Positions 1 to 19,272 of a stretch of 64,000 nt of DNA are shown here, in pieces. Origin of the DNA: a virus (taxonomy: Duplodnaviria; Heunggongvirae; Uroviricota; Caudoviricetes); IMG/VR virus record IMGVR_UViG_3300026488_000017, positions 40,396-104,395 of that record; one strand, given 5' to 3'. The position numbers and the translations under genes are program-made. The notes below the pieces were generated by a model. That model did not search any database and was not told the DNA's origin. It was given only the letters and a program-made list of their open reading frames with translations. The stretch's first letter is position 1. The number at the start of each line of letters is the position of its first letter.

Positions 1-89
1 CTCTAAGTGTTCTAAATTTAAAACCATTCTTTCTTTCCTTTCTTTTGAATTCAGTATTATAACATATAAAGTCTTAAAGCCTTCTTAAT

Positions 90-1127
90 CTATCTCTTTA
101 ATGGAATCTTTCCACTCTTTATTGTATCTCTCCAATATTGTAGTAAGTCCTCGAACATCTTTTGGACTGGTATCTCTGGTTCCCAATCGATGTATTCTTT
201 GACCTTAGAACAGCTAAACATTTGATAATCGGCATCACATTGTCTTAACCGTGATGTATCCACAGTCGTTTGAATATCTTTAACGGTACTCATACCACAT
301 AATAAATCTCTCACTTCTGTAAGATGAAATGCTTCTACACCTGCTATATTGAAATAGTCGCCATTCTTAATTTCTTCTTTTTCTGAAGCTAACATTAATA
401 GGTAATATGCTCTAACAGCATCCCTTGCATCTTGAAATGTCCTAGTACTGTCAAGATTACCTAATTCTAAGATAGGTTCTTGTAAACCTGCTTCAATCAT
501 AGCAATCTGTTTAGCTAATGTACTTTCAAAGAAAATATCACTTCTTCTAGGACCTGAGTGAGTACCCATTCTAGTAATAAATGTTTTCATATTGTAAGCT
601 TCACCATAAAACTGACCTAAATAATCTGTACCAATTTTAGAAATGCTATAAGGAGAAGCACCGTGAAATTTTGTATCTTCATTTAGTGTAACGCCTTTTT
701 CTGCTTTACCATATACTTCTGAGCTTGAACAAATATGAACGACTGGATTATAACCATCACGCTCTTTAAGCTGTCGTACAGACTCAACAATATTTGCTGT
801 ACCCATTATGTTTGTTTGTAATGTTTCTAATGGAGCCTCGAAGCTAACCTTAGGAAAAGACTGTGCTGCTAAATGGCTAATGAAATCAGGTCTATGCACT
901 TCAATCATTCTGCTTATACTAGAATAATCAATTAAATCGGCATTGTGTATAGTGATACGGTCATTTTTGTTGATTCTATCTGTTAAGTGATAGATATTGT
1001 CGAGAGGTTCTTGCCACCTCATCATACCGATAATATCCCAATCAGTATTTTCTAAGATGAAATCAGCCATAGTACTACCTACTTGACCAGTGATTCCTGT
1101 AATTAATATTTTTTTATTTATTTTCAT
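90..1127 (-). CDS. NAD-dependent GDP-sugar 4,6-dehydratase (Gmd / GDP-manno-heptose 4,6-dehydratase-like, SDR family)
   Basis: N-terminal Rossmann motif ILITGITGQVGS; length (345 aa) and overall resemblance to GDP-mannose 4,6-dehydratases; sits at the end of the GDP-heptose gene cluster. Confidence 0.65.
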   Translation of the reverse strand: MKINKKILITGITGQVGSTMADFILENTDWDIIGMMRWQEPLDNIYHLTDRINKNDRITIHNADLIDYSSISRMIEVHRPDFISHLAAQSFPKVSFEAPLETLQTNIMGTANIVESVRQLKERDGYNPVVHICSSSEVYGKAEKGVTLNEDTKFHGASPYSISKIGTDYLGQFYGEAYNMKTFITRMGTHSGPRRSDIFFESTLAKQIAMIEAGLQEPILELGNLDSTRTFQDARDAVRAYYLLMLASEKEEIKNGDYFNIAGVEAFHLTEVRDLLCGMSTVKDIQTTVDTSRLRQCDADYQMFSCSKVKEYIDWEPEIPVQKMFEDLLQYWRDTIKSGKIPLKR

Positions 1128-1135
1128 TTGATTCC

Positions 1136-1166
1136 TTATATAGTATTATAACTAAATGTTGCTTAA
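1136..1166 (-). promoter_or_regulatory. promoter-like element (minus strand TATAAT, plus-strand attata 1145-1150) upstream of the dehydratase gene
   Basis: tagtattataact; 15-20 nt before the RBS and ATG at 1127. Confidence 0.4.
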
Positions 1167-1885
1167 AATTCTTCCGTAAATCTGTGAGTGGGGTTGTACC
1201 AATTTGGTTTCATTTCGATTCTAGTATCTTTATCTTCAAAGAATTTCTCTTTAGCTTCTTTATCTGTGATGCTATCCCAATATTTACCCATTGATTCAAC
1301 TAATTCCCATTTACCTATCGTGTCGTGACCAGAAAGATTCACAACTGAAGGTGAATTAGCCCATCTGCGTACCATTTGTACAAGACCATCTTTAACATCT
1401 TCTAAATGTATTATATTTCTTTCATAATCTAAAAATACATCGACTCTTTCCTGGGATTGCACATATTTACAAAATCCATCTTCAAAACCTTCAATATCCG
1501 AAAAAACATAAGATAATCTAGCTATATGAACATTGTCGTTGGTCTCACAATAAGCCTCGATGTGCTTCTTGCTTATACTGTAAGGTGTGTCTTTACCTAG
1601 AACTACATCTGAGCTCAAGAAAATAACACGATTGTTTTCTGTTATATCTTGTATGGCTCTAATAGTACCATCTGCTACTCTAGCAGTCTTCTTAGGATGT
1701 TTTAAGCATTCAGCAGGTTTTGCCATTCCAGCAGTGAAAATGTATGTCCAACCTTGACCGAAATCCATACTCTCATAGTTTTCTAAATCAAATCTCTTTA
1801 CTACCGGCATACCTTGTGAAAATAAATAACTCCCCACAAAACCATTACCTATTACTCTAACTTTATTTTTGTCTGTATAGCTCAT
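1163..1885 (-). CDS. NAD(P)-dependent sugar-nucleotide reductase/epimerase (RmlD-like; candidate GDP-4-keto-6-deoxyheptose reductase)
   Basis: GxGxxG motif VIGNGFVGS near the N-terminus; start moved to the internal Met (ATG at 1885, preceded by AAGGAAAA) to reduce overlap with gmhB; adjacent to the dehydratase. Confidence 0.45.
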   Translation of the reverse strand: MSYTDKNKVRVIGNGFVGSYLFSQGMPVVKRFDLENYESMDFGQGWTYIFTAGMAKPAECLKHPKKTARVADGTIRAIQDITENNRVIFLSSDVVLGKDTPYSISKKHIEAYCETNDNVHIARLSYVFSDIEGFEDGFCKYVQSQERVDVFLDYERNIIHLEDVKDGLVQMVRRWANSPSVVNLSGHDTIGKWELVESMGKYWDSITDKEAKEKFFEDKDTRIEMKPNWYNPTHRFTEEF

Positions 1886-2333
1886 CGAATTTTCCTTCTT
1901 TATATAATATAAAATTTTTGACTCCAGCTGATACTGAAGCTTGATAATCACTATCTTTATCGCCTATCATCGTAGATTGACTCATATCGATACTGTATTT
2001 CTTTTGTGCATCTAATAACATACCTGGATTTGGTTTTCTTGACCAATGATTCCCTTCAGGTGTAAATGGCGAATGATACACATCTGTTATATTTATGCCG
2101 TACTCTTTTAAATCTCTTATCATTAATTTCATTAGCACTTGGAAGTCTTCTACTGTGTAGTAGCCTCTACCAATACCAGATTGATTCGTAACAATAATAA
2201 TAGTGTGTTCGGGGAATTTTTCTATAATATAACCAAGGACATCATAATTATACTCTAATTTTTCGTACTGATAGAAATAGCCATCAGGGTCTTTGTTGAT
2301 AACGCCGTCCCTATCTAAAAATAATGTTTTCAC
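1863..2333 (-). CDS. gmhB: D-glycero-D-manno-heptose 1,7-bisphosphate phosphatase (HAD family)
   Basis: N-terminal LFLDRDGVIN, the classic GmhB/HAD DxDGV motif; about 156 aa. Confidence 0.75.
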   Translation of the reverse strand: MKTLFLDRDGVINKDPDGYFYQYEKLEYNYDVLGYIIEKFPEHTIIIVTNQSGIGRGYYTVEDFQVLMKLMIRDLKEYGINITDVYHSPFTPEGNHWSRKPNPGMLLDAQKKYSIDMSQSTMIGDKDSDYQASVSAGVKNFILYKEGKFDELYRQK

Positions 2334-2344
2334 TTAGACTCCTC

Positions 2345-2384
2345 ATTTAGAGTATTATAACATAAGCAACCTTAAAGGCTTATA
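2345..2384 (-). promoter_or_regulatory. conserved phage promoter motif (extended -10 TGTTATAATA plus CCTTAAAGG)
   Basis: agtattataacataagcaaccttaaaggctt upstream of gmhB. Confidence 0.45.
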
Positions 2385-3015
2385 AAAAAGTCTTAGCTTT
2401 CTCATAATCCTCAGGAACACCAATATCTATAAATTGGCTGTCATTTCTGATTACGGTAACAAAATCTTTATATCTCTCTAAGAATTCTTCGAATGAGAAT
2501 TGCTCAGGTAAATCTTTGAATACTGCTTTGTGTAGAATATAAACACCTGAATTGATATAACCAGCTTCAGTATGCCCTTTTTCTTTGAATCGGATTTTAC
2601 CTTCTTCTATTTCCTCTACATAGCCGTAACGAGAGCAGTCGTCCTGATAAATTAAATTCATATTGATTAATGATGTAGGGTCTTGAAGCTTTACATCAGC
2701 AAATGTATCGCCGTTAAGGACGATGAGATATTCTGTACCTATTTCTTGAAATGCTAATTTGATAGCACCACCAGTACCTAAGGCATACCCTTCTTCTACA
2801 TAACGGACTGAATCTTTATAATAATCTTTGATGTAGTCTTTCATATAACCTACACCCAACCATATAGCGTGTTTTTTATATCTGTTAATAAGAATGTCTA
2901 GGAATGGTTTACCATTGATGTCAGCCATCGGCTTTGGTCTGTCAGCTACGACGCTCTGAAGCCTTGTACCCTTACCACCGGCCAGAATGAGTACTGGTAT
3001 ATTCTCTAATTTCAT
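2380..3015 (-). CDS. hddC: D-glycero-alpha-D-manno-heptose 1-phosphate guanylyltransferase (sugar-1-P nucleotidyltransferase)
   Basis: VLILAGGKGTRLQSVVADRPKPMADINGKPFLD nucleotidyltransferase signature; about 211 aa, typical HddC size; lies in the gmhA/hddA/gmhB context. Confidence 0.65.
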   Translation of the reverse strand: MKLENIPVLILAGGKGTRLQSVVADRPKPMADINGKPFLDILINRYKKHAIWLGVGYMKDYIKDYYKDSVRYVEEGYALGTGGAIKLAFQEIGTEYLIVLNGDTFADVKLQDPTSLINMNLIYQDDCSRYGYVEEIEEGKIRFKEKGHTEAGYINSGVYILHKAVFKDLPEQFSFEEFLERYKDFVTVIRNDSQFIDIGVPEDYEKAKTFL

Positions 3016-3581
3016 ACAGATTTCTTAGCATCAAATTCATCGACTGCATATGCTAATTCGTGCATTATCAAATCGTGTACAACCTGAATAACTGGTGTCG
3101 AATCAGAAGCCACCTTGATAAAATTAATGCCATCAAGATATTGCATTGTACCACCCGTTGAACCCGTTATGATAATGGTTCTCATACCCTTTTTCTTAGC
3201 TACTTTGATAGCCTCGATAATATTTTCTGAATTTCCAGATGTAGTGAACCCGATGAATAAATCGCCTGATTCTCCCATAGCTTCTAGCTGTCGTGAAAAT
3301 ATTTCTTTGAAACCAAAATCGTTTCCTATAGCAGTAATGACGGTGTTATTTGCTGTTAAATCTACTGAAGGGTAACCTCTTCGTGTTGTCATAAATTTTC
3401 CCACTATTTCGCCTACCAAATGTGACGCCGTAGCACAAGAACCACCGTTACCAGCTACATAAATTGTATTTTCTGATTTTAATGTTTCTTTGATTAAACT
3501 TTTACCTACACTCAAAGGAATTAAGTCGTGTTGTAAAGATTCTAAAGCCTTAATATGTTCTTCTATATTTTTGTTCATCAT
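3012..3581 (-). CDS. gmhA: phosphoheptose isomerase (SIS domain)
   Basis: SIS-domain motifs VAGNGGSCATASHLVGE and TTSGNSENI; 189 aa. Confidence 0.75.
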   Translation of the reverse strand: MMNKNIEEHIKALESLQHDLIPLSVGKSLIKETLKSENTIYVAGNGGSCATASHLVGEIVGKFMTTRRGYPSVDLTANNTVITAIGNDFGFKEIFSRQLEAMGESGDLFIGFTTSGNSENIIEAIKVAKKKGMRTIIITGSTGGTMQYLDGINFIKVASDSTPVIQVVHDLIMHELAYAVDEFDAKKSV

Positions 3582-3618: not shown

Positions 3619-3638
3619 GAAGCTTAATATTAAGCTTC
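3619..3638. other. perfect 20-nt palindrome GAAGCTTAATATTAAGCTTC (possible hairpin or protein-binding site) at the hddA stop / gmhA promoter junction
   Basis: read directly; contains two HindIII-type AAGCTT sites. Confidence 0.4.
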
Positions 3639-4643
3639 TACGACCCACGATTCAGCACCATATTCAGAAAATTGCACATCTTCTGCTTTACCACCGAATT
3701 TTTCTAAGGCTTCTTTCACCTTAAGCTTGGATTCAGGTGTCACCAAAAACATCATAAATCCAGATGCACCAGCTCCTGATAGCTTTCCAGCAAAGGCACC
3801 AGCAGTGATAGCTACACTAAAAAGATTATCCACATAAGCATTACTAATACTGTTAGATGTTTTCTTTTTTTCTTCCCAGGATTGATTCAGAATATTTCCT
3901 AATGAATGGCAATCAGATTTCAGAAGAGCTTCTTTCATCAGTAAAGCGGAATTCTTAAGCTCGTGTAATGCCTCTAATGATTTTTCGTTCTTTTGTGATT
4001 TTATTTGTTCTTCAATAACATCACCTGATGAACGCTGTTTACCCGTGAAATAAATCAGTAAGCTTGAAGAAAGCTCATTCATAAAAGACCGTTTGATTCT
4101 TAATGGATTTACAATCGTTTTATCTTTGTAAAATTCCATAAAATTCCAACCACCGTGAGTAGCACAGAATTGGTCTTGTTTTCCACCTTTTAGATTCAAA
4201 TCCTGGCGTTCAATTTCCCAAGCTAGTCCGGCTATGTCGTATTCACCTAAAGGTAGATTGTAGTATTCCACAAACGCTTGAATGATAGCTACGACCATTG
4301 TACTACTAGAGCCTAGACCTGAACCACCTGGTGCATCAGAATATGTTGTGATATTTAAAGAATCTCTATCGATGTATTTTCTGCCTATTAGACCTTCCCA
4401 AACACCTCTCATCAGTAAACAATTTTCATTCTCATATTCATTATCAAAAACATTTGCTTCTTTAATGTCGGTTGCTTTGAAATGCGTACCCATTGTGTTT
4501 GCTGATATTGTGCAGTAAGCATATTTATTGATAGTCACATTAAGAACATAACCACCAAAATCATCTGAATAAGGAGAAACATCTGTTCCACCTCCACCAA
4601 AACCTAATCTTAAAGGTGCTTTACTTCTTACTTTTCTTTTCAT
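3630..4643 (-). CDS. hddA: D-glycero-alpha-D-manno-heptose 7-phosphate kinase (GHMP kinase)
   Basis: GHMP motifs SKAPLRLGFGGGGTD and PGGSGLGSSS; start moved to the internal Met (4643) to remove the 56-nt overlap with the upstream gene. Confidence 0.7.
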   Translation of the reverse strand: MKRKVRSKAPLRLGFGGGGTDVSPYSDDFGGYVLNVTINKYAYCTISANTMGTHFKATDIKEANVFDNEYENENCLLMRGVWEGLIGRKYIDRDSLNITTYSDAPGGSGLGSSSTMVVAIIQAFVEYYNLPLGEYDIAGLAWEIERQDLNLKGGKQDQFCATHGGWNFMEFYKDKTIVNPLRIKRSFMNELSSSLLIYFTGKQRSSGDVIEEQIKSQKNEKSLEALHELKNSALLMKEALLKSDCHSLGNILNQSWEEKKKTSNSISNAYVDNLFSVAITAGAFAGKLSGAGASGFMMFLVTPESKLKVKEALEKFGGKAEDVQFSEYGAESWVVEA

Positions 4644-4650
4644 TAAATTT

Positions 4651-6156
4651 CTACCACTCATCTTCGTTAATCCCCTCTTCATCTTTTTCTTTACAGATTC
4701 TTTCAAAATCAGCTACTGTAGCAACTTTTGTCATTGTGCTCTTTCGTTTATTCTTTAAACGAATCTTAAATGTTTCTCTCTGTTCCATATATTCTTCATA
4801 AGTTTTTATCTTACTAAGTTTTGTCATAGCCCATCGATAATCTTTATCGGGAATACTGTGAAAGTCGCCTTTTCTAAAAAGTTCTACTTGGTCAAAATAT
4901 GTTCTAAGTTCCATCGCAAAGTGTAAATAAGTCTGTAATGAAATAGCATTAAGATGATTTCTAATACCTTCAATCTCTCCAAATTTCTCTTGAAAAGGTT
5001 TAATACCAGTCATACCATCTTCTCTCCAAGGTGAATATTTCTCTTGGAATTCTTTCCTAGAAAGTTTATTTCCACCTATCGTGTTCATAAGCAAATCTTC
5101 GTAAGCATCTTGTGTTTTCTGCATAAATTCTGCTACATCGGGTGCATCTTTATCTCTACCTAAACAACCCGATACGAGTTTTAATGAATGAGTTTCCTCT
5201 CCATCACGAATAAAAGATTCATCTACAAGTTTTGTATATTTACCGAATGTACTAGCACCAGTGTGTGAAGTTGAATCAAAAGTATAATGAACATCTTTAC
5301 CAAAGAAATCATTATTTAATGCAAATAAGACACCTGATTTAGATGGTCCACCTAATCCTAGAATATGTATAAGTTTTCTATGTTCTTCGGGTACCTCTGT
5401 TAAATCTCTAGGTGCTCTACAATATAAATCGAACATCTGAAAGTAAGGGATAATACCTGATGTAGCTAATGAAAGACCACCAATGTACTCAAAATATTCT
5501 GCTTTCTGTGCATCAGGCATTTCATTGAATACTGAATAAACACCACGAGCATATTCGTTATAGTCTTCGATTTCCCAACCTTGTACAATAACCATTACTT
5601 TAGTATCAGATTTTTCTTTCATAAAAACTTCAATTTGTTCTTTTATGTTAAATCCTGATTCTCGACCTGCATCAAATCTTAATTCTTCAACAAAATATTT
5701 AAGACTGTGGTCCATCTTCATACCTTGTCCAGCATTATTACTACCGGCTATAGTGTGTCGTTTTGCTTCATCCACTAGAATAGGCATCTTATCAAAACTC
5801 ATAGCGTGAGAACTAAATGTTGCTTGACATTTGTAGATTCCTAATTTGATTTCAGGTGTCATAGTTTTACCTAATGTGATAACCTGAAGTCCACCTGAAT
5901 CTGATTGTACCATTAATGTTTTCTCGGGAGTATTTAAACCTATGAGAATATCTTCTGTAGCCTGTTCTGTGAAAGCATTGTAAAGACTTCCTACACCACA
6001 ATGTTCTGTATAATCATCCAATCCAAATAGAACACCTTGAATAAATTCATCGTATTCTTTTGTCATATTTAATTTAACAGCGTGTCGTTGTATTAAGTGT
6101 AATCTTGTGAATGTGGTCATCGCTGATGCGATGTATGTTTTTTTGATATTTGCCAT
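4651..6156 (-). CDS. tRNA-guanine-transglycosylase-family protein, probable DNA 7-deazaguanine transglycosylase (DpdA-like)
   Basis: Three TGT-family motifs in the correct order: SDSGGLQV (compare DSGGFQ), IGGLSLATSG (compare GGLAVGE) and HILGLGGPS (compare YLMGVGxP); no CxCxxC zinc site; directly upstream of queE. Confidence 0.55.
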   Translation of the reverse strand: MANIKKTYIASAMTTFTRLHLIQRHAVKLNMTKEYDEFIQGVLFGLDDYTEHCGVGSLYNAFTEQATEDILIGLNTPEKTLMVQSDSGGLQVITLGKTMTPEIKLGIYKCQATFSSHAMSFDKMPILVDEAKRHTIAGSNNAGQGMKMDHSLKYFVEELRFDAGRESGFNIKEQIEVFMKEKSDTKVMVIVQGWEIEDYNEYARGVYSVFNEMPDAQKAEYFEYIGGLSLATSGIIPYFQMFDLYCRAPRDLTEVPEEHRKLIHILGLGGPSKSGVLFALNNDFFGKDVHYTFDSTSHTGASTFGKYTKLVDESFIRDGEETHSLKLVSGCLGRDKDAPDVAEFMQKTQDAYEDLLMNTIGGNKLSRKEFQEKYSPWREDGMTGIKPFQEKFGEIEGIRNHLNAISLQTYLHFAMELRTYFDQVELFRKGDFHSIPDKDYRWAMTKLSKIKTYEEYMEQRETFKIRLKNKRKSTMTKVATVADFERICKEKDEEGINEDEW

Positions 6157-6167
6157 TTATGTCCTTG

Positions 6168-6212
6168 TTGAGCGTATTATAACATTAATTTGCTTAATAT
6201 TACACGCCTGCC
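6168..6212 (-). promoter_or_regulatory. conserved promoter motif upstream of the TGT-family gene
   Basis: gcgtattataacattaatttgcttaatat. Confidence 0.4.
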
Positions 6213-6973
6213 TGATTGTTCCAGATGCGAATGTGGATTCTATCCGAATACTTGAAACCATTATCGATACATTTCTCCATAACAAATTTAGCATTTTCTT
6301 GAAGTGTTTCATTTGTATCACCAAGTGGCATTAAATAAACATCCATATATACTGGAATTGCTTTAAGAATCTCTTGAATCTCTTTGAAATCTTGCTCCCA
6401 AGATGCTTTAGAACATACAAATTTAAGGTACGATTTAGGTGACATTTCTACGATATTCGTTAAATTGTCGATATTGATTCTTTTGTGCTCTAACTCGCCA
6501 CTATTTGATAGTTTTACTGAAGTCGAAAACATTATCTCTTTTTGGTACTCGCGTGTAAAATTAATATCTAATGCACCATTAGTTTCGATTGTAATCTTAT
6601 GACCACGAGAAACATAGTGAGAAATAGTTCTTTGAAAAACTTCATCTTTCCAATAGATTAAAGGCTCTCCACCAGTGAATACAATATCAGGTTTCGTTAA
6701 AGAGTTCTTACCAAAATCGGGGATTGTAGCATCGATTCTCTCGACTAATTCTTCATATTCTGTGATAACATCCCATTCTTTTTTAAATGATTTATCGACT
6801 GAATAATACGAGTCACAACCAAATTTCTTTTCGCCTGTTATAGGGTCTTCATAAGGTACTTTAAACCCTGCACAAGTAAAATTACATAACGCACTTCTTA
6901 CAAATACAGAAGGGACTCCCATACGAGAACCCTCACCTTGTACTGAATAAAAACATTCCATTAATGAATACAT
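6200..6973 (-). CDS. queE: 7-carboxy-7-deazaguanine synthase (radical SAM)
   Basis: ECFYSVQGEGSRMGVPSVFVRSALCNFTC, plus TGGEP and ETNG motifs typical of QueE. Confidence 0.8.
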   Translation of the reverse strand: MYSLMECFYSVQGEGSRMGVPSVFVRSALCNFTCAGFKVPYEDPITGEKKFGCDSYYSVDKSFKKEWDVITEYEELVERIDATIPDFGKNSLTKPDIVFTGGEPLIYWKDEVFQRTISHYVSRGHKITIETNGALDINFTREYQKEIMFSTSVKLSNSGELEHKRINIDNLTNIVEMSPKSYLKFVCSKASWEQDFKEIQEILKAIPVYMDVYLMPLGDTNETLQENAKFVMEKCIDNGFKYSDRIHIRIWNNQAGV

Positions 6974-6982
6974 ATTTGCTCC

Positions 6983-7492
6983 TTAAGCTAGTCTTAGGTT
7001 ACCTAGTTCGTTGATTAAGATAATATCTGCTTCAGTATAATCTCCATAAGCTGTTAATTGCTCATTAAGTTTTGCTAATGATTCTTCATCTGCTTCAAGT
7101 TTTTCTGAAGGAGTGATACGATACATTGTTGGACCTTCTGAACCTTCTTCATTCTCTGTTGGTGTACTAACGATGAAACCTTGTTTAGCATAATCACCAA
7201 GAACATAAAATCTCTCTGGAACAACAACACCAACTACTGTTAAGGCACCATCTAATGCTTCTTCTGATTCGTTAAATGCTACACCATCAAGTGTACTTTC
7301 TGAAACCAAGTTAGCCATTCTCTTTAAGTTAGAAGTATAACCACCATTTAATACGATAATAGTTTTGCCTTTTTCAGCCCACTCTCCGTATAACGCATTG
7401 TCTGTTAATGAACATTCAGCTACAGCGTGTGCAGTTTGAATACCTTTTTGAATATCTGATAGATACATATTTGTAATTGAGTAAAATCTCAT
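6983..7492 (-). CDS. hypothetical protein (acidic C-terminal half)
   Basis: ORF with an upstream promoter-like motif; no recognisable motifs. Confidence 0.4.
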   Translation of the reverse strand: MRFYSITNMYLSDIQKGIQTAHAVAECSLTDNALYGEWAEKGKTIIVLNGGYTSNLKRMANLVSESTLDGVAFNESEEALDGALTVVGVVVPERFYVLGDYAKQGFIVSTPTENEEGSEGPTMYRITPSEKLEADEESLAKLNEQLTAYGDYTEADIILINELGNLRLA

Positions 7493-11531: not shown

Positions 11532-11939
11532 ATGAAAAGTTCATACGCTGATGATATTTGGTACACTGCTGCAACACTAAGCGATAATGCATTACTAAAA
11601 GATTTACACAAAGAAAAGATTCCAGGTATGGATATTTACTATGAGTTACATTCGTGTACACCATTTCAAGCAAGTTGCTATGAAAATAATGAAGAGGCAG
11701 CAAAACTGTTTATTAAATGGGGAGTAGATTTAGATAGAAAAGATGGTGATGGCGATACAATGCTTTCATATTGTTTCGATACCGAAAAGTGGTCAATAGT
11801 GTTAGAGATACTGAAACACAAACCGTCATTAGAAGGTATCAATGATTTCTTAATTACTCAAGCACCTAAAAGAATTCAGAAAGCATTCCAAAAAGTATCT
11901 GGTCTCAAAAAACTAGGTAAGTACGCAGATTTATTATAA
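11532..11939 (+). CDS. ankyrin-repeat protein with conserved C-terminal KKLGKYADLL tail
   Basis: ankyrin-like GDGDTMLSY repeat; C-terminus ...GLKKLGKYADLL is shared with four other ORFs in the window. Confidence 0.6.
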   Translation: MKSSYADDIWYTAATLSDNALLKDLHKEKIPGMDIYYELHSCTPFQASCYENNEEAAKLFIKWGVDLDRKDGDGDTMLSYCFDTEKWSIVLEILKHKPSLEGINDFLITQAPKRIQKAFQKVSGLKKLGKYADLL

Positions 11940-12241: not shown

Positions 12242-13537
12242 TCAAGCGTAAATATCATTGTACGAGAATTGCCCTAATTCCACTTCATTCCCCATTGGCA
12301 TAATAAGACCTTTCATCATATTATGAATAACTGCTTCAGGAATGAATTTCCCTTCAGTCTCGTTTCGTGTTACATTTCGTTCAAAAATAGTATCGTAATC
12401 AGTACAGAAAAAACGGCTTCTTGTATCATATTTTTTGAGACGCTCATTGAATTTTTGACGGTAACCTTTGTCTTTATTTTCTATCTGAAACGAGAACCAT
12501 TTTCTTCGTGCTTTAGGCCCAACATTTGTCATATCGATAATAATATCATCACCTCTTAGTACAGCACACTCGAACTGCGAACGAATCATACGGTCGATTT
12601 CTGATTGGTCGTCCGATGTAAGAAGCGTCCAAATCTCCCCATATTTAAGAGATTTCCCATATTTGAAGCGACCTAGCTCTAATAGTGTAGCGTCTCTGCT
12701 AATCACTGTGGTATCCTCATCGACATTCTCTTTAATATAAGTGCTCTTACCTGATAGCGGTACGCCTACGAGTGCTGTGATACTACGGTCACTAATGATT
12801 CTAGTGCCTTCATCCATATCTCTATCAGGCCAGAATTTGTCCATAAAAGGCTTACCATAAAGAACGGTACCTAGCAATGAACCTTCATCAGACCTAGCAT
12901 CAGCAGATGGTGAGAAACGACCAGTGGAATCATAACGAACCTGATTAACAAATAACGGAAATAAACTTTTGTGGTTTTTCCATCGTTCTGCTACTTTCTC
13001 AGGTTTGTGCTCTTTACCATCCTTGATGCTGTCAAAAAGTGTACCGTGTAATGAGATAATCGTAAGCACATCTTGCATTTCTGAAGGAAAAATCACACCC
13101 ATTTTCACAAGCTCTTGTAACGGCTTTACAGCTTTATATACTGAAATCCCTTCGTGGCCTCTGAAATGCGTTTTCCATTCTCTAGCTAAAGCCTTTGTCT
13201 TAGAGTGCTCTTTATCCGCCTCACGAAGCTCGTTAGATTCTGTGTGGGTAGGTTTAGGCTTATTGAATGGAATAACCTCTCTCGATGCTGGCTTACCAGT
13301 GTCGTGTAGTAATGCTGCTAAAAGATTTACTGTCTCAGCTCTATCATTCTGTGCTTGTAAACATACCATCATCGTGTGAGTCCATACAGAATCTTCCAAA
13401 TGATATGGATTAGGTTCTGAATCTACAGCGGCGTGATTACTAGCTTTCATTTCGTTAGCTAAATCTGTGAATTCCATTTGGAACCAATTCACTAGTTCTG
13501 CCATTGATGGTTTTTGTTTTTCTTTAAAATAATTCAT
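12242..13537 (-). CDS. HD-domain phosphohydrolase fused to P-loop kinase domain (polynucleotide kinase/phosphatase-like)
   Basis: N-terminal HD motif H...LLHDTGKP; C-terminal Walker A GVPLSGKSTYIKE. Confidence 0.5.
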   Translation of the reverse strand: MNYFKEKQKPSMAELVNWFQMEFTDLANEMKASNHAAVDSEPNPYHLEDSVWTHTMMVCLQAQNDRAETVNLLAALLHDTGKPASREVIPFNKPKPTHTESNELREADKEHSKTKALAREWKTHFRGHEGISVYKAVKPLQELVKMGVIFPSEMQDVLTIISLHGTLFDSIKDGKEHKPEKVAERWKNHKSLFPLFVNQVRYDSTGRFSPSADARSDEGSLLGTVLYGKPFMDKFWPDRDMDEGTRIISDRSITALVGVPLSGKSTYIKENVDEDTTVISRDATLLELGRFKYGKSLKYGEIWTLLTSDDQSEIDRMIRSQFECAVLRGDDIIIDMTNVGPKARRKWFSFQIENKDKGYRQKFNERLKKYDTRSRFFCTDYDTIFERNVTRNETEGKFIPEAVIHNMMKGLIMPMGNEVELGQFSYNDIYA

Positions 13538-13632: not shown

Positions 13633-14244
13633 ATGGATTTTGATTCTGAAACTCTTCAGTACTACATAATGAAAGGTAAAGTAATGGAACTAAAGGCAGA
13701 AGAGAAAAAAGGTACGCTTAAGAAATTAGTGAATGTGGATTTTGATAATGGTAAGTCACCACTTAATACAGCCATTTACAAAAAAACATCTACTATCGTG
13801 ACTATATTAATCGATAATGGTGCTGATGTAAATTACATAGATGGTAATGGTGGTCTCCCATTAGTGAATTCTGCCAACACAAACACTTTCATTATAGCTC
13901 CTTTACTCAAAGCTGGTGCTGAAGTAAACAAAGAGAGTACTTATGGTTCAACTGCTTTCACAAAAGTATTAGGTGATAGAGATAGAAAAGGTGAAGGTCT
14001 TGCTGTAGCACTTATATCTGATAAACATTTTGATATTACTAAAGAAGAATTTAAACCTGATATGCTTCTACAGCAATCGATTAAAAATAAATGGGATAGA
14101 GTAACGGCACTCATTCTCAAAACGGGATTTGATTTCGATTACGAGGACCTCAGAAATGTAGGTGATGGTACAAAAAAGATTATAGATAAACATCTAGGTC
14201 TAAAAAAATTAGGTAAGTACGCAGACTTACTAGGAGACATATAA
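13633..14244 (+). CDS. ankyrin-repeat protein with KKLGKYADLLGDI C-terminus
   Basis: ankyrin repeats (SPLNTAIY...NGADVN...GNGGLPLV...AGAEVN); conserved tail. Confidence 0.6.
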   Translation: MDFDSETLQYYIMKGKVMELKAEEKKGTLKKLVNVDFDNGKSPLNTAIYKKTSTIVTILIDNGADVNYIDGNGGLPLVNSANTNTFIIAPLLKAGAEVNKESTYGSTAFTKVLGDRDRKGEGLAVALISDKHFDITKEEFKPDMLLQQSIKNKWDRVTALILKTGFDFDYEDLRNVGDGTKKIIDKHLGLKKLGKYADLLGDI

Positions 14245-14723
14245 TGACTGTAAAACAATTTGAAGAAGAATTAGAAATGTATTCGGTAGACTTTGCTAAA
14301 GATGGAAGAACATTTTTAATGCAGTATGCAGAACTAGGTAATAATAAAATAGTTGATTACTTAATAAAGAAGAAAGCCAAATTAAATAAACAAGATGATA
14401 ATGGTATAACTGCTTTATATACTGCTGCCGTTAGGGATAGAAAATACATAGTAAATGCACTCATCAAAGCTGGTGCTGATGTAGATGTTCAAGATACTGA
14501 AGGAGATACGGCTCTTCATCGTGTAATGTACAATAGAGGTTCTAAGAAAATCGTAGAAATTCTTATACTAGCTGGTGCTGATTTAAGTATCAAAAATGAA
14601 GATGGTCATACAGCAGAAGATTTAATGATTGGTGAATACAAGAAAGTATTTTTATCATCAGTTAAAAAAGTGAAAGGTATGAAAAAATTAGGTAAGTACG
14701 CTGACTTGCTAGGAGATATATAA
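14244..14723 (+). CDS. ankyrin-repeat protein with KKLGKYADLLGDI C-terminus
   Basis: ankyrin repeats (NGITALYTAA, EGDTALHRV); conserved tail; ATG overlaps the upstream stop (ATAATG). Confidence 0.6.
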   Translation: MTVKQFEEELEMYSVDFAKDGRTFLMQYAELGNNKIVDYLIKKKAKLNKQDDNGITALYTAAVRDRKYIVNALIKAGADVDVQDTEGDTALHRVMYNRGSKKIVEILILAGADLSIKNEDGHTAEDLMIGEYKKVFLSSVKKVKGMKKLGKYADLLGDI

Positions 14724-15019
14724 TGAGTAGAGTTAGAATAACAGCTGTCATAGATGGTACATTCTATTACACTAGGTCGTATGAGGATAATGAATCACTA
14801 AAAGCTAGTGTAGATAGTATAGCAAATAGCGAAGTGAAGACACAGCTATTACGCTCAGATGCCAAAGAGTTATCGTATGAAAAATTTCTGAATGATTACA
14901 AAGATGGTAAGAATATTGTTTATTTTTGGATGGATGGTAAATGGATTAAAGATACAACGAAGAATATTATTAAAAATATTGCTCGTAAAAAAATAGGTAA
15001 ATACGCAGACCTATTATAG
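14723..15019 (+). CDS. hypothetical protein with KKIGKYADLL C-terminus (no ankyrin)
   Basis: shares only the C-terminal peptide with the ankyrin family. Confidence 0.45.
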   Translation: MSRVRITAVIDGTFYYTRSYEDNESLKASVDSIANSEVKTQLLRSDAKELSYEKFLNDYKDGKNIVYFWMDGKWIKDTTKNIIKNIARKKIGKYADLL

Positions 15020-17504: not shown

Positions 17505-17545
17505 TTTACTGTATTATAACATAAAAATACTTAAAAGGAGATTAA
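17505..17545 (-). promoter_or_regulatory. promoter motif variant
   Basis: actgtattataacataaaaatacttaaaagg. Confidence 0.4.
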
Positions 17546-19272
17546 ATCTTCATCACAAGTTTTATGTAAATATGGCGCTCTTCAAAATCTGTACCTGAAC
17601 CCAAAACTCTCCCCGTGTCATTCGTGATATTCTTTACGCTAACTTTAATATAATCTTTTGAAAACTTGTACTTATAATAAACATCAAATTGATTGTAACC
17701 ATAGTTATGCTCTTTGATTCTAATATCTGCTTTGTCTGCTTCTGATAATGTCGTACTTTCTTTAGCAAATTTATGAGTTACTCCAGCACCGTAGTATTCT
17801 ATTCTCGTATCAGTTCTGAATGGTGTAATCTTTGAGATATAATCGATATTAGTTCTACCATAAACATACTCAGCAAAGAAATCTATGATGAATTTATTGC
17901 TCTCATAGACTAAGTTCGTGTTAGCACCATAAGTGTATCCATTCTCTGCATTTGTCACTTGAAACATATCTGAGCCATCAGGAGCAACAATATATGTCTT
18001 CTCTCTCGTTATCATATCTTCTAGTATATTATAGAACATAGTCCCTTTGTACTTGAAGTTTTGGTATCTAGCTGTGTAACCTATTTCAGTCTTAATGCTC
18101 GTTTCTTTCTTCAAATCGGGGTTAGGTATCTCATAAAGGCTATCAGAAACTGCTTCGTTTAGATTATAGATTGTCGGGTATTTGTAACCTTGTGCTATAC
18201 TTAAATATATTCCTTTGTACTCACCTTTAACACCTACACCTACATTCCAAAAGTTTTTATCTGCTATAGTTGCATAATCAGCAATTACACTAGCACTGTA
18301 TTTGAAATCTTTATAATTCTCAAAATAGTTTAGAGCTATACTGTTATCTATAACATCGTAGTTCTTCTTATCTTTGTTGTACTTCTGGTATTCTATATCT
18401 TCAAATTTGTGTTTCGTTGTCATAATCAGTTCATCACTAAAATAATACTCATTCCTAATCTGATAGATATTATTATTTGATTTATCGATTTTTTCTACAC
18501 CATTTCTAGGATTGTTTACATTCTCGTAGAAGTTCTGATAAGAAATCTTTAATATATAATCCTGATTAACCATAAAATCCTTAAAGAAACCTAAATAATA
18601 TTGTTTATCATAGATTCTCGGTTCTCCTTTAAGGAATTTATCAGTTCTATCTATTTCATCGCTTCGTGTGTAAATCAGTTTGTATCTGTTTTTCTCTAAA
18701 TAGATGCCCTTTTGATTATAATTTGTGTGTGCTTGTTCACCATCTGGAGTTACTACACTTCTTTTGTCCTCATATATAGCACCTAGTTTCAAATCTTCAT
18801 CTTGAAAAGAAGTAAAGACTTTTCCACCATTGATATAATTCTGAATTTGTATTGTGTTTGAGTTCGATTCTAAGAACCCTAAATGTCTATTGATTGAACC
18901 ACCAAAAGAATTATTACTAATATCATCAACACCTTTATTAAGTGAAATATCTTGTACGAATTCATTAGGGATATAAGAATAATATTGATTAGGCCCACTT
19001 CTAAAAAGTGAGTTCGTAAAATCCATTTCATCAACTGTAAGATTAATCTGGTCGCCTTGTAAACCTCTATATATGGGCTGTCTGAAACCTGGGGTGGTTT
19101 CTTGGATTTGAACAGCTCTCTCTGCGTGTTCGTTATTGTCTGTGTTTTCTAGTTGATTCACAAATAGAACTTCTCGTTGAAAGGGTGCTGAAGTAATAGT
19201 AATTTCTTTTAGTACGATTGTTTCTTGTGCAAATACAATCGTACTAGCTAGAATTAATGTTAATAGTTTCAT
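17542..19272 (-). CDS. TonB-dependent-receptor-like outer-membrane beta-barrel protein
   Basis: signal peptide MKLLTLILASTIVFAQE; plug-domain-like YRGLQGDQINLTVDEM and FGGSIN; Tyr/Asn-rich beta-strand-like C-terminal two-thirds. Confidence 0.45.
   Translation of the reverse strand: MKLLTLILASTIVFAQETIVLKEITITSAPFQREVLFVNQLENTDNNEHAERAVQIQETTPGFRQPIYRGLQGDQINLTVDEMDFTNSLFRSGPNQYYSYIPNEFVQDISLNKGVDDISNNSFGGSINRHLGFLESNSNTIQIQNYINGGKVFTSFQDEDLKLGAIYEDKRSVVTPDGEQAHTNYNQKGIYLEKNRYKLIYTRSDEIDRTDKFLKGEPRIYDKQYYLGFFKDFMVNQDYILKISYQNFYENVNNPRNGVEKIDKSNNNIYQIRNEYYFSDELIMTTKHKFEDIEYQKYNKDKKNYDVIDNSIALNYFENYKDFKYSASVIADYATIADKNFWNVGVGVKGEYKGIYLSIAQGYKYPTIYNLNEAVSDSLYEIPNPDLKKETSIKTEIGYTARYQNFKYKGTMFYNILEDMITREKTYIVAPDGSDMFQVTNAENGYTYGANTNLVYESNKFIIDFFAEYVYGRTNIDYISKITPFRTDTRIEYYGAGVTHKFAKESTTLSEADKADIRIKEHNYGYNQFDVYYKYKFSKDYIKVSVKNITNDTGRVLGSGTDFEERHIYIKLVMKI

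What the first reader, a model, noticed from the sequence alone, without database searches (positions are those of the whole stretch)
4651..6973. 7-deazaguanine DNA modification genes (QueE plus TGT-family DpdA-like) next to the heptose cluster
QueE is unambiguous (FYSVQGEG...FVR..C...C, TGGEP, ETNG). The 501-aa upstream ORF carries the three tRNA-guanine transglycosylase family blocks (SDSGGLQV, GGLSLATSG, HILGLGGPS) but lacks the tRNA-TGT zinc motif, as expected for phage DNA-guanine transglycosylases (DpdA). Established knowledge: phages with DpdA and preQ0-pathway genes replace G with 7-deazaguanine derivatives (dPreQ0, dADG, dG+). Here the deazaguanine genes sit at the head of a nucleotide-sugar operon and are transcribed in the same direction. 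That raises the speculative possibility of a glycosylated 7-deazaguanine, comparable to mannosyl- or galactosyl-queuosine in tRNA, or of two independent DNA modifications. FolE, QueD and QueC are not in this window and should lie elsewhere.
Basis: partly seen in the sequence, partly recalled or inferred. Interest (0 to 1): 0.75.

Follow-up and report, generated by a model that had tools for sequence, protein, structure and literature searches.

The report
Phage deazaguanine DNA genes with heptose module
A giant uncultured T4-like phage carries one operon that makes a 7-deazaguanine base, swaps it into DNA, and has a heptose-sugar pathway and a glycosyltransferase built into it, which suggests (but does not prove) a sugar-decorated guanine analogue in DNA, something not yet described.

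Summary

The window cuts the operon. On the source contig (331,651 bp) the order is QueE, DpdA, HddA, GmhA, HddC, GmhB, SDR, 4,6-dehydratase, a 706-aa ORF, DpdL (motif LxxxHRHxF), a 160-aa ORF, a GT4-type glycosyltransferase, FolE, QueD and a purine PRTase. No QueC is annotated in the ~78 kb examined, so the base probably derives from CDG, not preQ0.

The pair GT + DpdL sits in QueE/DpdA(-like) clusters (FolE seen in most) in every lineage with a strong GT match. Relatives with the same QueE-DpdA...FolE-QueD-PRTase skeleton carry QueC, QueC+QueF, or a PP-loop ATPase cassette where the heptose genes lie here. The heptose genes therefore occupy the tailoring slot.

Most likely reading: a (6-deoxy)heptosylated 7-deazaguanine in DNA. 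This is inferred, not shown. I rate it a new variant of a known kind.

The parts
6200..6973 (-). QueE-type radical SAM enzyme (7-carboxy-7-deazaguanine synthase), 257 aa. Its Cys triad is C30-x3-C34-x18-C53.
   Evidence: PHROG 2076 QueE-like, 4e-58. Five NCBIfam QueE models are the top hits (2e-18 to 3e-11), all below their curated cut-offs. Pfam Radical_SAM scores 32.2 bits against a cut-off of 29.5. C30, C34, C53, TGGEP and ETN are invariant across 8 phage QueE sequences, including annotated ones from ACP17, BUDD and PA5oct.
4651..6156 (-). DpdA2-like DNA-guanine transglycosylase, 501 aa. It has a TGT-type TIM barrel (about residues 1-335) and a C-terminal helical domain, and no zinc site.
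3630..4661 (-). HddA-like D-glycero-D-manno-heptose 7-phosphate kinase (GHMP). Its start codon overlaps the DpdA stop by 11 nt.
   Evidence: NCBIfam NF049969 HddA at 4e-110 (368 bits, cut-off 600); the next family scores 106 bits. Pfam GHMP_kinases_N and _C. The overlap is shown.
3012..3581 (-). GmhA-like sedoheptulose 7-phosphate isomerase (SIS)
   Evidence: TIGR00441 gmhA at 2e-47 (161 bits, cut-off 209). The KdsD arabinose-5-P isomerase model reaches only 0.0097. Pfam SIS_2.
2380..3015 (-). HddC-like heptose 1-phosphate guanylyltransferase
   Evidence: NF049965 HddC at 6.6e-46 (157 bits, cut-off 300), the best of 32 families. Pfam NTP_transferase.
1863..2333 (-). GmhB-like heptose 1,7-bisphosphate 7-phosphatase (HAD-IIIA)
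   Evidence: NF006506 at 1.7e-38 and NF050049 at 1e-37, both below cut-off.
1163..1885 (-). Short SDR-like protein (240 aa as called on the contig). Inferred to be the 4-reductase or epimerase of the deoxy-heptose branch.
   Evidence: PHROG 540 nucleotide-sugar epimerase, 7e-10 to 9e-10. No Pfam or NCBIfam hit. 43% identical to the orthologue at the same position in the relative L008.
90..1127 (-). GDP-sugar 4,6-dehydratase (GMD/DmhA-like), 345 aa
   Evidence: Pfam GDP_Man_Dehyd at 8.6e-70. TIGR01472 gmd at 1.8e-46, below cut-off.
1..27 (-). First 9 codons of the next operon gene, a 706-aa ORF of unknown function. The operon continues off the window with DpdL, a 160-aa ORF, the GT4 glycosyltransferase, FolE, QueD and a PRTase. 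These are L003 11101-17170, where window coordinate = 11128 minus L003 coordinate.
   Evidence: Contig look-ups. Family hits. The window-to-L003 mapping was verified.
6983..7492 (-). 169-aa ORF directly upstream of QueE. It may or may not belong to the operon; function unknown.
   Evidence: PHROG 3668 'hydrolase' at 6e-28. No Pfam, NCBIfam or PDB hit. A 46%-identical homologue lies ~1.5 kb upstream of QueC-DpdA in the relative L020.

Best explanation
The two ORFs are the first genes of a ~13-kb, co-directional, tightly packed operon of an uncultured T4-like jumbo phage. The operon builds a 7-deazaguanine base from GTP, exchanges it for guanine in DNA, and very probably decorates it with a heptose.

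Proposed steps:
1. FolE, QueD (with the catalytic CxxxHGH motif) and QueE convert GTP to 7-carboxy-7-deazaguanine (CDG).
2. No QueC is present. A DpdL homologue, the predicted CDG decarboxylase, would give 7-deazaguanine.
3. The DpdA2-like transglycosylase replaces G in duplex DNA by base exchange, using the TGT-type aspartates D86 (acid/base), D122 (base recognition) and D294 (nucleophile).
4. GmhA, HddA, GmhB and HddC make GDP-D-glycero-alpha-D-manno-heptose. The 4,6-dehydratase and the SDR convert it to a GDP-6-deoxy-heptose.
5. The conserved retaining GT-B (GT4, EX7E) glycosyltransferase transfers that sugar to the deazaguanine, either before or after insertion. Candidate positions are the electron-rich C7 exposed by decarboxylation, or N2 as in huimycin.
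6. The 6-oxopurine PRTase next to QueD may salvage the released guanine into GMP, which feeds back to GTP.

Shown here: gene identities, gene order and conservation of the association. Inferred: every chemical step, the acceptor of the sugar and the order of events.

My sub-confidences are: QueE and DpdA-family identity ~0.9; a CDG-derived, QueC-independent base ~0.7; the sugar ending up on the deazaguanine ~0.45.
For: Identity of the two ORFs: QueE; DpdA2-like. nt-1 DpdA2 inserts preQ0 into DNA when expressed in E. coli (PMC10516641).

Operon structure: all genes lie on one strand with gaps of -23 to +48 nt, and DpdA/HddA overlap by 11 nt. No terminator-like site lies between genes on that strand.

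Genes beyond the window edge: FolE Pfam 6.8e-27, QueD Pfam 2.9e-23 with CRHLHGH, PRTase Pfam 3e-14. The 117-aa protein carries LRDDHRHMF, which is the DpdL signature LxxxHRHxF of PMC10516641. It is 34% identical to the ACP17 cluster protein that has the same motif.

Association: homologues of GT and DpdL sit together inside QueE clusters that also hold a DpdA or a DSGG-bearing DpdA-like ORF (FolE was seen in most, not in the PA5oct or L018 stretches) in the relatives L008 and L009, and in ACP17, Xanthomonas BUDD, PA5oct and two marine T4-like lineages. In X1 the GT lies next to DpdA. In Burkholderia BCSR5 and Sinorhizobium Phosso the GT lies in a QueE/FolE cluster, with DpdL and DpdA not checked there.

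Tailoring slot: relatives with the same QueE-DpdA...FolE-QueD-PRTase skeleton hold, at the position of the heptose genes, QueC (L019), QueC+QueF (L020), or a PP-loop ATPase plus two ORFs (L009, BUDD). A marine lineage has a different sugar-nucleotide set (UDP-Glc-DH-like, epimerase, cytidylyltransferase-like) next to the core.

A relative whose DpdA is only 51% identical keeps the identical heptose cassette in the same place.

Chemical precedents: the glycosyltransferase HuiG glycosylates a 7-deazapurine base, and a PRTase uses CDG in tubercidin synthesis (bioRxiv 10.64898/2026.04.15.718813). Heptosylated 5hmC DNA has been made from a phage gene cluster (bioRxiv 10.1101/2023.12.21.572611).
Against: There are no chemical data for this phage or for any phage with the GT+DpdL core.

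If DpdL really decarboxylates CDG, the product has no obvious hydroxyl or amine handle at C7. The sugar would then need C- or N-glycosylation, which GT4 enzymes are not known for.

Cellulophaga phage phiST makes plain dDG with DpdL and no such GT, so the GT is not required for dDG.

DpdL function is itself only predicted: heterologous tests failed, and my profile comparison of DpdL with QueD found nothing.

T4-like phages that arabinosylate 5-hydroxycytosine use a similar set of SIS isomerase, kinase, HAD phosphatase, nucleotidyltransferase and GT-B enzyme (PMC13326640). The acceptor here could therefore be a pyrimidine.

Only ~78 kb of the 331-kb genome was seen. QueC or a pyrimidine hydroxylase could lie elsewhere.

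The heptose enzymes and QueE all score below NCBIfam equivalog cut-offs.
Confidence: 0.5

Rival explanations
1. There are two independent functions that merely share an operon. The deazaguanine genes make an unglycosylated base in DNA (dDG or dCDG). The heptose cassette and the glycosyltransferase put the sugar on something else: a hydroxylated or hydroxymethylated pyrimidine in DNA, a virion protein, or a host surface glycan.
Against: No thymidylate-synthase-like hydroxylase or hydroxymethylase, TET/5mYOX enzyme or C5-methyltransferase is annotated in the ~78 kb examined. The GT stays next to DpdL, QueE and a DpdA or DpdA-like ORF in all ten other loci examined whose GT matches at E below 1e-20, including 156-kb ACP17, where it lies between DpdA and DpdL. 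The heptose genes occupy the exact position where relatives carry QueC or QueF.
Confidence: 0.3
2. The modification is made at the nucleotide level. The purine PRTase converts the deazaguanine base plus PRPP into a nucleotide, as ToyH and TubE do in toyocamycin and tubercidin synthesis. Phage kinases and the polymerase then incorporate it during replication. DpdA would be auxiliary, or would act only on residual G.
For: A 6-oxopurine-type PRTase is conserved directly after QueD in every relative of this clade, whatever the tailoring cassette. It also occurs in the marine lineages. A T4 gp1-like dNMP kinase and a 5'-nucleotidase are encoded in the window. A PRTase uses CDG in tubercidin synthesis.
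Against: A DpdA-family protein with intact catalytic aspartates is conserved in every cluster. nt-1 DpdA2 alone is sufficient for DNA insertion in E. coli. The published view is that all phage 7-deazaguanines are post-replicative (PMC10516641). No ribonucleotide-to-deoxyribonucleotide step specific to the analogue was identified. Guanine salvage explains the PRTase equally well.
Confidence: 0.12
3. The 501-aa protein is a tRNA-guanine transglycosylase that modifies phage or host tRNA, not DNA.
Against: The closest characterised relative acts on DNA. The protein lacks the zinc subdomain that tRNA TGTs use on the anticodon stem. A profile of the family retrieves only 436 representatives and not the huge canonical TGT family. 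No Pfam or NCBIfam TGT model recognises it. It sits in the replication-gene neighbourhood typical of phage DpdA clusters.
Confidence: 0.04

Closest known systems
DpdA2 of Vibrio phage nt-1 (YP_008125322) and the phage DpdA2 subfamily (Hutinet 2019, PMC6884629; Cui 2023, PMC10516641)
   Same: 29% identity over the ~300-aa catalytic barrel. It shares DSGGLQ, FD(K/E)(M/I)P and (F/Y)DS(T/S)(S/T)HTG, has no zinc motif and a similar length (464 vs 501 aa), and lies inside a FolE/QueD/QueE cluster of a T4-like phage.
   Different: nt-1 has QueC and ArcS and inserts preQ0, at about 0.1% of G. Here QueC is absent from the region seen, and DpdL, a GT and heptose genes are present. The position that is H-G in nt-1 is an invariant Q192-G193 here and in ACP17. 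The substrate is therefore probably different.
DpdL-type clusters predicted to give 2'-deoxy-7-deazaguanosine (Cellulophaga phage phiST; Acidovorax phage ACP17; Cui 2023)
   Same: FolE + QueD + QueE + DpdL + DpdA without QueC. The DpdL signature LxxxHRHxF is present. The ACP17 DpdA, GT-like protein, DpdL and QueE are all homologous to the proteins here.
   Different: phiST uses DpdA3 and has no homologue of the GT. The paper does not mention a glycosyltransferase, a PRTase or sugar genes. Here a six-gene GDP-heptose cassette is inserted in the cluster.
Bacterial DpdA (Salmonella Montevideo, PDB 7UI4) and bacterial or archaeal tRNA-guanine transglycosylases
   Different: There is no CXCX2CX22H zinc site. 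No DpdB ATPase partner was seen. No Pfam or PDB sequence-level match was found. A helical C-terminal domain of about 165 aa is extra.
Phage DNA sugar hypermodification systems on pyrimidines (T4 glucosyl-5hmC; arabinosyl-5-hydroxycytosine of RB69, DLP3 and HY126; heptosyl-5hmC from metagenomic clusters)
   Same: A phage-encoded nucleotide-sugar pathway (isomerase, kinase, HAD phosphatase, nucleotidyltransferase) is combined with a GT-B transferase in a T4-like genome.
   Different: Those systems lie next to a pyrimidine hydroxylase, hydroxymethylase or TET enzyme. Here the neighbours are deazaguanine genes. The sugar here is predicted to be GDP-linked heptose with a 4,6-dehydratase branch.
GDP-6-deoxy-heptose pathways of Campylobacter jejuni and Yersinia pseudotuberculosis capsule or O-antigen (GmhA, HddA, GmhB, HddC, DmhA, DmhB). 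This comparison is from my own knowledge.
   Same: The same four-enzyme route to GDP-D-glycero-alpha-D-manno-heptose, followed by a GMD-like 4,6-dehydratase and an SDR.
   Different: All phage versions fall below the NCBIfam equivalog cut-offs. The SDR is unusually short at 240 aa. The setting is a phage DNA-modification operon, not a polysaccharide locus.
Huimycin/dapiramicin and tubercidin/toyocamycin biosynthesis (7-deazapurine secondary metabolites)
   Same: FolE/QueD/QueE core combined with a glycosyltransferase that acts on the deazapurine base (HuiG), or a PRTase that uses CDG or preQ0.
   Different: Those are bacterial small-molecule clusters that lack DpdA. Here a DNA transglycosylase is present and the setting is a phage replication module.

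Membership tests
QueE (7-carboxy-7-deazaguanine synthase, radical SAM) | Three-cysteine [4Fe-4S] motif and the SAM-binding GGE motif | tested here: met
   C30, C34, C53 and T100-GGEP are invariant in 8 phage QueE sequences. The Cys2-Cys3 spacing is unusual (x18) and varies between relatives. ACP17 has the classic CX3CX2C.
QueE (7-carboxy-7-deazaguanine synthase, radical SAM) | Match to curated QueE family models | tested here: inconclusive
   PHROG QueE-like at 4e-58. Five NCBIfam QueE models are the best hits, but at 43-67 bits against cut-offs of 200-300.
QueE (7-carboxy-7-deazaguanine synthase, radical SAM) | Co-occurrence with FolE and QueD | tested here: met
   FolE and QueD (with CxxxHGH) lie in the same operon, 8-10 kb downstream on the contig.
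TGT superfamily | TGT-type (beta/alpha)8 barrel | tested here: met
TGT superfamily | Three invariant active-site aspartates (acid/base, base recognition, nucleophile) | tested here: met
   D86 (in DSGGLQ), D122 and D294 are invariant in 19 homologues and align with the same motifs of nt-1 DpdA2. Equivalence to Asp95/130/256 of bacterial DpdA is inferred from motif order, not from a superposition.
TGT superfamily | Structural zinc site, CxCxxC...H | tested here: not met
   No CxCxxC occurs in the window protein or in any DpdA2-like relative. E. coli TGT has CDCYTC. Bacterial DpdA keeps the site.
TGT superfamily | Pfam PF01702 (TGT) match | tested here: not met
   The window protein has no hit at E up to 1. 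Only 1 of 19 homologues hits, at 2e-6. hhalign against E. coli TGT gives a 26.6% probability, with only the QG...GGL region aligned.
Phage DpdA2 subfamily | Significant sequence similarity to nt-1 DpdA2, the founding member | tested here: met
   tblastn E 2e-25, pairwise E 2e-32, 29% identity over 307 aa. The hit was verified to be YP_008125322. The family HMM scores nt-1 DpdA2 at 205 bits.
Phage DpdA2 subfamily | Exchanges guanine in DNA for a 7-deazaguanine | not testable with these tools
   Shown for nt-1 and VH7D DpdA2 in E. coli. No data exist for this clade.
DpdL (predicted CDG decarboxylase) | Signature LxxxHRHxF in place of the QueD motif CxxxHGH | tested here: met
   LRDDHRHMF in the 117-aa protein. 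L30, H34, H36 and F38 are invariant in 8 homologues; R35 is F in PA5oct.
DpdL (predicted CDG decarboxylase) | Occurs with DpdA, FolE, QueD and QueE but without QueC | tested here: met
   True for the ~78 kb examined. The other ~250 kb of the genome were not seen.
DpdL (predicted CDG decarboxylase) | T-fold relatedness to QueD | tested here: inconclusive
   hhalign of shallow DpdL and QueD alignments found nothing. No Pfam or PDB hit. The published link is by HHpred.
GDP-D-glycero-alpha-D-manno-heptose pathway | GmhA, HddA, GmhB and HddC all present | tested here: met
   For each protein the best NCBIfam family is the heptose enzyme (368, 161, 132 and 157 bits), although all are below the equivalog cut-offs. 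The set is conserved as a block in a relative.
GT4-type retaining GT-B glycosyltransferase | GT-B fold with the EX7E motif | tested here: met
GT4-type retaining GT-B glycosyltransferase | Identity of donor and acceptor | not testable with these tools
   A GDP-(6-deoxy)heptose donor and a deazaguanine acceptor are inferred from gene neighbourhood only.

The most novel reading that the evidence does not exclude
The phage DNA contains a 7-deazaguanine that carries a heptose or 6-deoxy-heptose. This would be the first glycosylated purine-type base in any DNA. The GT + DpdL core, found in cultured phages such as ACP17, BUDD, BCSR5, PA5oct and Phosso, would then define a whole family of sugar-decorated deazaguanines in which interchangeable nucleotide-sugar cassettes set the sugar. 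One mechanistic possibility is that DpdL decarboxylation exposes the nucleophilic C7 for C-glycosylation. Another is N2-glycosylation, as in huimycin.
Probability: 0.4. Interest if true: 0.9.

Novelty: new variant of a known kind. Interest (0 to 1): 0.75.

Why it matters
All ten or so known 7-deazaguanine DNA modifications are small groups at C7 (H, COOH, CN, amide, amidine, aminomethyl and its methyl and formyl forms). All known DNA glycosylations are on pyrimidines.

A conserved glycosyltransferase inside deazaguanine clusters, with swappable sugar cassettes, would join these two strategies. It would explain why DpdA + DpdL alone failed to give product in E. coli. It would also offer a candidate identity for the uncharacterised modified G of PA5oct.

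The idea can be tested directly, because several cultured phages carry the GT + DpdL core. Such bases matter for evasion of restriction, CRISPR and glycosylase-based defence. They also affect sequencing artefacts in jumbo-phage metagenomics and could serve as new enzymatic tools for DNA labelling.

Tried and rejected
Searches that found nothing:
- Megablast of 4 kb against 50,697 phage records gave no match, so the phage has no close cultured relative.
- Pfam, NCBIfam and PDB phmmer with the 501-aa protein, and a 19-sequence profile against PDB, gave nothing meaningful.
- hhalign of the family against a single E. coli TGT sequence gave a weak result (26.6%). It aligned only the QG...GGL region, although in the expected register.
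- hhalign of DpdL against QueD alignments gave no signal.
- The sigma-70 promoter scan found fewer sites than shuffled sequence (26 vs 39.9), and the terminator-like sites are not informative.

Ideas considered and rejected:
- That the QueD homologue is itself DpdL. Rejected because it has CRHLHGH.
- That the 706-aa ORF is a second DpdA, as in the relative L008. Rejected because it has no DSGG motif and no HMM score.
- That the SIS/kinase/HAD/NTase set makes UDP-arabinose, as in RB69-type phages. Rejected because the best models are GmhA, HddA and HddC, KdsD scores only 0.0097, and a 4,6-dehydratase is present.
- That Xanthomonas PhiXhv-type GT hits belong to the same system. Rejected because identity is 25%, coverage is partial, and the context is GlmS/deacetylase without QueE.

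Four literature searches for a glycosylated deazaguanine in DNA found none in the held library. The supplementary tables of Cui 2023, which classify ACP17 DpdA, are not held.


Full report
**1. The observation**

Both proteins have many homologues, so they are real genes. The 501-aa protein has 23 homologues in the 5.8-billion-protein collection, all metagenomic. One exact copy lies on a 331,651-bp contig. A profile of the family finds 436 cluster representatives among 1.84 billion proteins. On the minus strand QueE is transcribed first and the 501-aa gene second. "Upstream" in the finding is therefore true only in plus-strand coordinates.

**2. QueE**

- The 257-aa protein matches PHROG 2076 "QueE-like radical SAM" at 4e-58.
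- Its five best NCBIfam hits are all QueE models, although far below their equivalog cut-offs.
- Pfam Radical_SAM passes its threshold.
- In an alignment with seven phage QueE proteins, including annotated ones from ACP17, BUDD and PA5oct, the residues C30, C34, C53, TGGEP and ETN are invariant.
- The spacing Cys2-x18-Cys3 is an insertion of variable length. ACP17 has the classic CX3CX2C.

**3. The 501-aa protein**

Sequence libraries do not recognise it. There is no Pfam, NCBIfam or PDB hit, even with a 19-sequence profile. One homologue of the 19 touches Pfam TGT at 2e-6.

Two independent lines place it in the DpdA family.

- *Similarity to a validated enzyme.* tblastn against phage genomes finds 71 records. 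Among them is Vibrio phage nt-1 at 237,924-238,751 (29% identity over 307 aa, E 2e-25). That locus is YP_008125322, the founding DpdA2 (Hutinet 2019). This protein alone inserts preQ0 into DNA in E. coli (Cui 2023). Acidovorax phage ACP17 ASD50403, which lies between FolE and QueE, is also 29% identical.

The family keeps DSGGLQ (D86), FDKMP (D122), QG (192-193) and FDST (D294) invariant. These line up with the same motifs of nt-1 DpdA2. They correspond, by order of motifs, to the acid/base, base-recognition and nucleophile aspartates of DpdA and TGT.

There is no CxCxxC zinc motif in this protein or in any DpdA2-like relative, whereas E. coli TGT has one. Bacterial DpdA retains the zinc site.

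**4. What the window cuts off**

The window starts 14,161 bp into the contig. Two contig look-ups show that the operon continues past window position 1. The gene order is:

1. QueE
2. DpdA
3. HddA
4. GmhA
5. HddC
6. GmhB
7. short SDR
8. GDP-sugar 4,6-dehydratase
9. 706-aa unknown ORF (its first 27 nt are window 27..1)
10. 117-aa ORF
11. 160-aa ORF
12. 335-aa glycosyltransferase
13. FolE
14. QueD
15. 153-aa phosphoribosyltransferase

All genes lie on one strand with gaps of -23 to +48 nt. The DpdA stop overlaps the HddA start, ATGAGTGGTAG.

- FolE scores Pfam 6.8e-27 and QueD 2.9e-23. QueD has the catalytic CRHLHGH motif.
- The 117-aa protein carries LRDDHRHMF. This is exactly the LxxxHRHxF signature by which Cui et al. 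define DpdL, the predicted CDG decarboxylase. It is 34% identical to the ACP17 cluster protein with the same motif. L30, H34, H36 and F38 are invariant in eight homologues.
- No QueC appears in the precomputed Pfam annotation of the ~78 kb covered.
- The expected base is therefore derived from CDG and is of the 7-deazaguanine type. It is not dPreQ0, dADG or dG+.
- The rest of the window is a T4-like replication and structural region: B-family polymerase, DnaB-like helicase, UvsX, dNMP kinase and tail fibre proteins.

**5. The sugar genes**

HddA, GmhA, HddC and GmhB each have the heptose enzyme as their best NCBIfam family by a wide margin: 368, 161, 157 and 132 bits. All are below the curated cut-offs. 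The arabinose-5-phosphate isomerase model scores only 0.0097, and a GMD-like 4,6-dehydratase follows (Pfam 8.6e-70). The product is therefore most likely GDP-D-glycero-alpha-D-manno-heptose, processed further to a GDP-6-deoxy-heptose. The last step, through the 240-aa SDR, is inferred.

**6. The glycosyltransferase**

- The 335-aa protein hits Pfam Glycos_transf_1 at 1.5e-5, just under the cut-off.
- A model of its 91%-identical cluster representative has pLDDT 91.7.
- It also matches a tetrahydrobiopterin glucosyltransferase (20.4), the DNA glycosyltransferase of phage HY126 (19.3) and T4 alpha-glucosyltransferase (18.2).
- The EX7E motif is invariant in 31 homologues.

**7. Comparative evidence that sugar and deazaguanine belong together**

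(a) A relative whose DpdA is 51% identical (L007/L008) keeps the same six-gene heptose cassette between DpdA and DpdL-GT-FolE-QueD-PRTase.

(b) Homologues of the GT with E below 1e-20 were examined in ten other loci.

| Locus | What lies next to the GT |
|---|---|
| L008, L009 | DpdL, QueE, DpdA |
| ACP17 | FolE-x-DpdA-GT-DpdL-QueE |
| Xanthomonas BUDD | DpdL, QueE, DpdA |
| Xanthomonas X1 | GT adjacent to the DpdA match (by coordinates) |
| PA5oct | DpdL, QueE, DSGGFQ-bearing DpdA-like ORF |
| Two marine T4-like lineages | DpdL, QueE, DSGG(F/Y)Q-bearing DpdA-like ORF |
| Burkholderia BCSR5, Sinorhizobium Phosso | GT inside a QueE/FolE cluster; small neighbouring ORFs not checked for the DpdL motif |

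A weaker GT hit (25% identity, Xanthomonas PhiXhv) has a different context and was excluded.

(c) In the same phage clade the skeleton QueE-DpdA...FolE-QueD-PRTase is constant, while the middle varies. It holds QueC in L019; QueC plus QueF in L020; and a PP-loop ATPase with two ORFs plus GT and DpdL in L009, an arrangement also present in BUDD. Here it holds the heptose cassette plus DpdL and GT. A marine lineage places a different sugar-nucleotide set (UDP-glucose-dehydrogenase-like, epimerase, cytidylyltransferase-like) next to the same core.

The heptose genes thus sit in the slot that elsewhere holds the enzymes that define the final deazaguanine derivative.

**8. Literature**

- Cui 2023 predicts dDG for DpdL clusters. 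Expressing DpdA + DpdL of phiST or ACP17 in E. coli gave no product, and the authors suggest that unknown enzymes may be required. The paper does not mention a glycosyltransferase, a PRTase or sugar genes.
- PA5oct DNA resists G-containing restriction sites, and the modification is unidentified.
- Four searches of the held library found no report of a glycosylated deazaguanine in DNA.
- Chemical precedents exist. HuiG glycosylates a 7-deazapurine base, and a PRTase uses CDG in tubercidin synthesis. Heptosyl-5hmC DNA has been produced from a metagenomic phage cluster.
- One caveat: T4-like phages that arabinosylate 5-hydroxycytosine use a similarly composed sugar-activation set and a GT-B enzyme.

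**9. Mechanism proposed**

GTP is converted to CDG by FolE, QueD and QueE. DpdL is predicted to turn CDG into 7-deazaguanine. DpdA exchanges this base for G in DNA. The GT4 enzyme transfers (6-deoxy)heptose from the phage-made GDP-sugar to the deazaguanine, before or after insertion. The PRTase may recycle the released guanine.

Gene identities and associations are shown here. All chemistry is inferred.

The weak point is the acceptor atom. Decarboxylated 7-deazaguanine offers only C7/C8 or N2. Plain dDG is the end product in phiST, which lacks the GT.

My estimates:

| Reading | Probability |
|---|---|
| Sugar ends on the deazaguanine | ~0.45 |
| Shared operon but separate targets | ~0.3 |
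| Nucleotide-level route through the PRTase | ~0.12 |
| tRNA rather than DNA as substrate | ~0.04 |

**10. Verdict**

The finding is real and its main reading is supported. The DpdA and QueE genes alone would be a new member of a known kind. The conserved GT + DpdL core with interchangeable sugar cassettes, here a complete GDP-heptose pathway, is a new variant of the 7-deazaguanine DNA-modification systems. I could not find this variant described. It can be tested by mass spectrometry on cultured relatives. Expected masses are given.

Noticed in passing
window 11532-11939, 13633-14244, 14244-14723, 14723-15019 (all + strand): Four ORFs on the strand opposite to most neighbouring genes all end in nearly the same C-terminal peptide, K(K/R)(L/I)GKYADLL, with GDI added in two of them. 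Two of the four are ankyrin-repeat proteins by precomputed Pfam. A shared tail on otherwise different proteins suggests a targeting, packaging or degradation tag.
   Followed up: no
window 1-27 (-), continuing as L003 11101-13221: A 706-aa ORF lies inside the operon between the dehydratase and DpdL. It has no hit in Pfam, PHROGs, NCBIfam or PDB. Its N-terminus has a possible PD-(D/E)xK-like pattern (IDVGF...GIENKV). In the relative L008 the same position holds a second DpdA paralogue instead.
   Followed up: partly
L008 11916-13394; a 462-aa ORF follows DpdA at L019 11459-12847: The relative L008 encodes a second, diverged DpdA paralogue. It scores 238 bits against the family HMM but has DSGA in place of DSGG. 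It may be an inactive partner or an enzyme with another substrate. In L019 a 462-aa ORF occupies the same position after DpdA, but it gave no tblastn match to the DpdA queries, so its relation is untested.
   Followed up: partly
L003 16709-17170 and the equivalent gene in L008, L009, L019, L020; also L016-L018: A small 6-oxopurine-type phosphoribosyltransferase follows QueD in every relative of this clade, whatever the tailoring cassette. It also occurs in the marine clusters. Its role is unknown: guanine salvage after base exchange, or formation of a deazaguanine nucleotide.
   Followed up: partly
window 6200-6973 (-): The radical SAM cysteine triad of this QueE is CX3CX18C. The insert between the second and third cysteine ranges from 2 to more than 40 residues among phage relatives.
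   Followed up: yes
window 12242-13537 (-): A 431-aa protein with an HD-type motif and an AAA_33 kinase domain (Pnkp-like). Relatives carry T4-type RNA ligases near their copy, which suggests a tRNA-repair module close to the DNA-modification operon.
   Followed up: no
L016/L017 2334-14184 (marine T4-like contigs; 87 contigs carry the GT): A widespread marine phage cluster directly after the DNA polymerase gene. It combines a DSGGFQ-bearing 510-aa protein, DpdL, GT, PRTase, a 2OG-Fe(II) oxygenase, a HIT protein, FolE and QueE with a different sugar-nucleotide set. It is probably another uncharacterised deazaguanine derivative.
   Followed up: partly
window 17542-19272 (-): A 576-aa protein in the tail or baseplate region has a precomputed Pfam hit to the TonB-dependent receptor beta-barrel, which is unusual for a phage structural gene. 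It may be spurious.
   Followed up: no
window 6983-7492 (-): A 169-aa ORF directly upstream of QueE (PHROG 3668 'hydrolase') has a 46%-identical homologue near the QueC-DpdA cluster of L020. A PTH2-family gene lies in the L018 cluster. It is not clear whether this ORF belongs to the pathway.
   Followed up: partly
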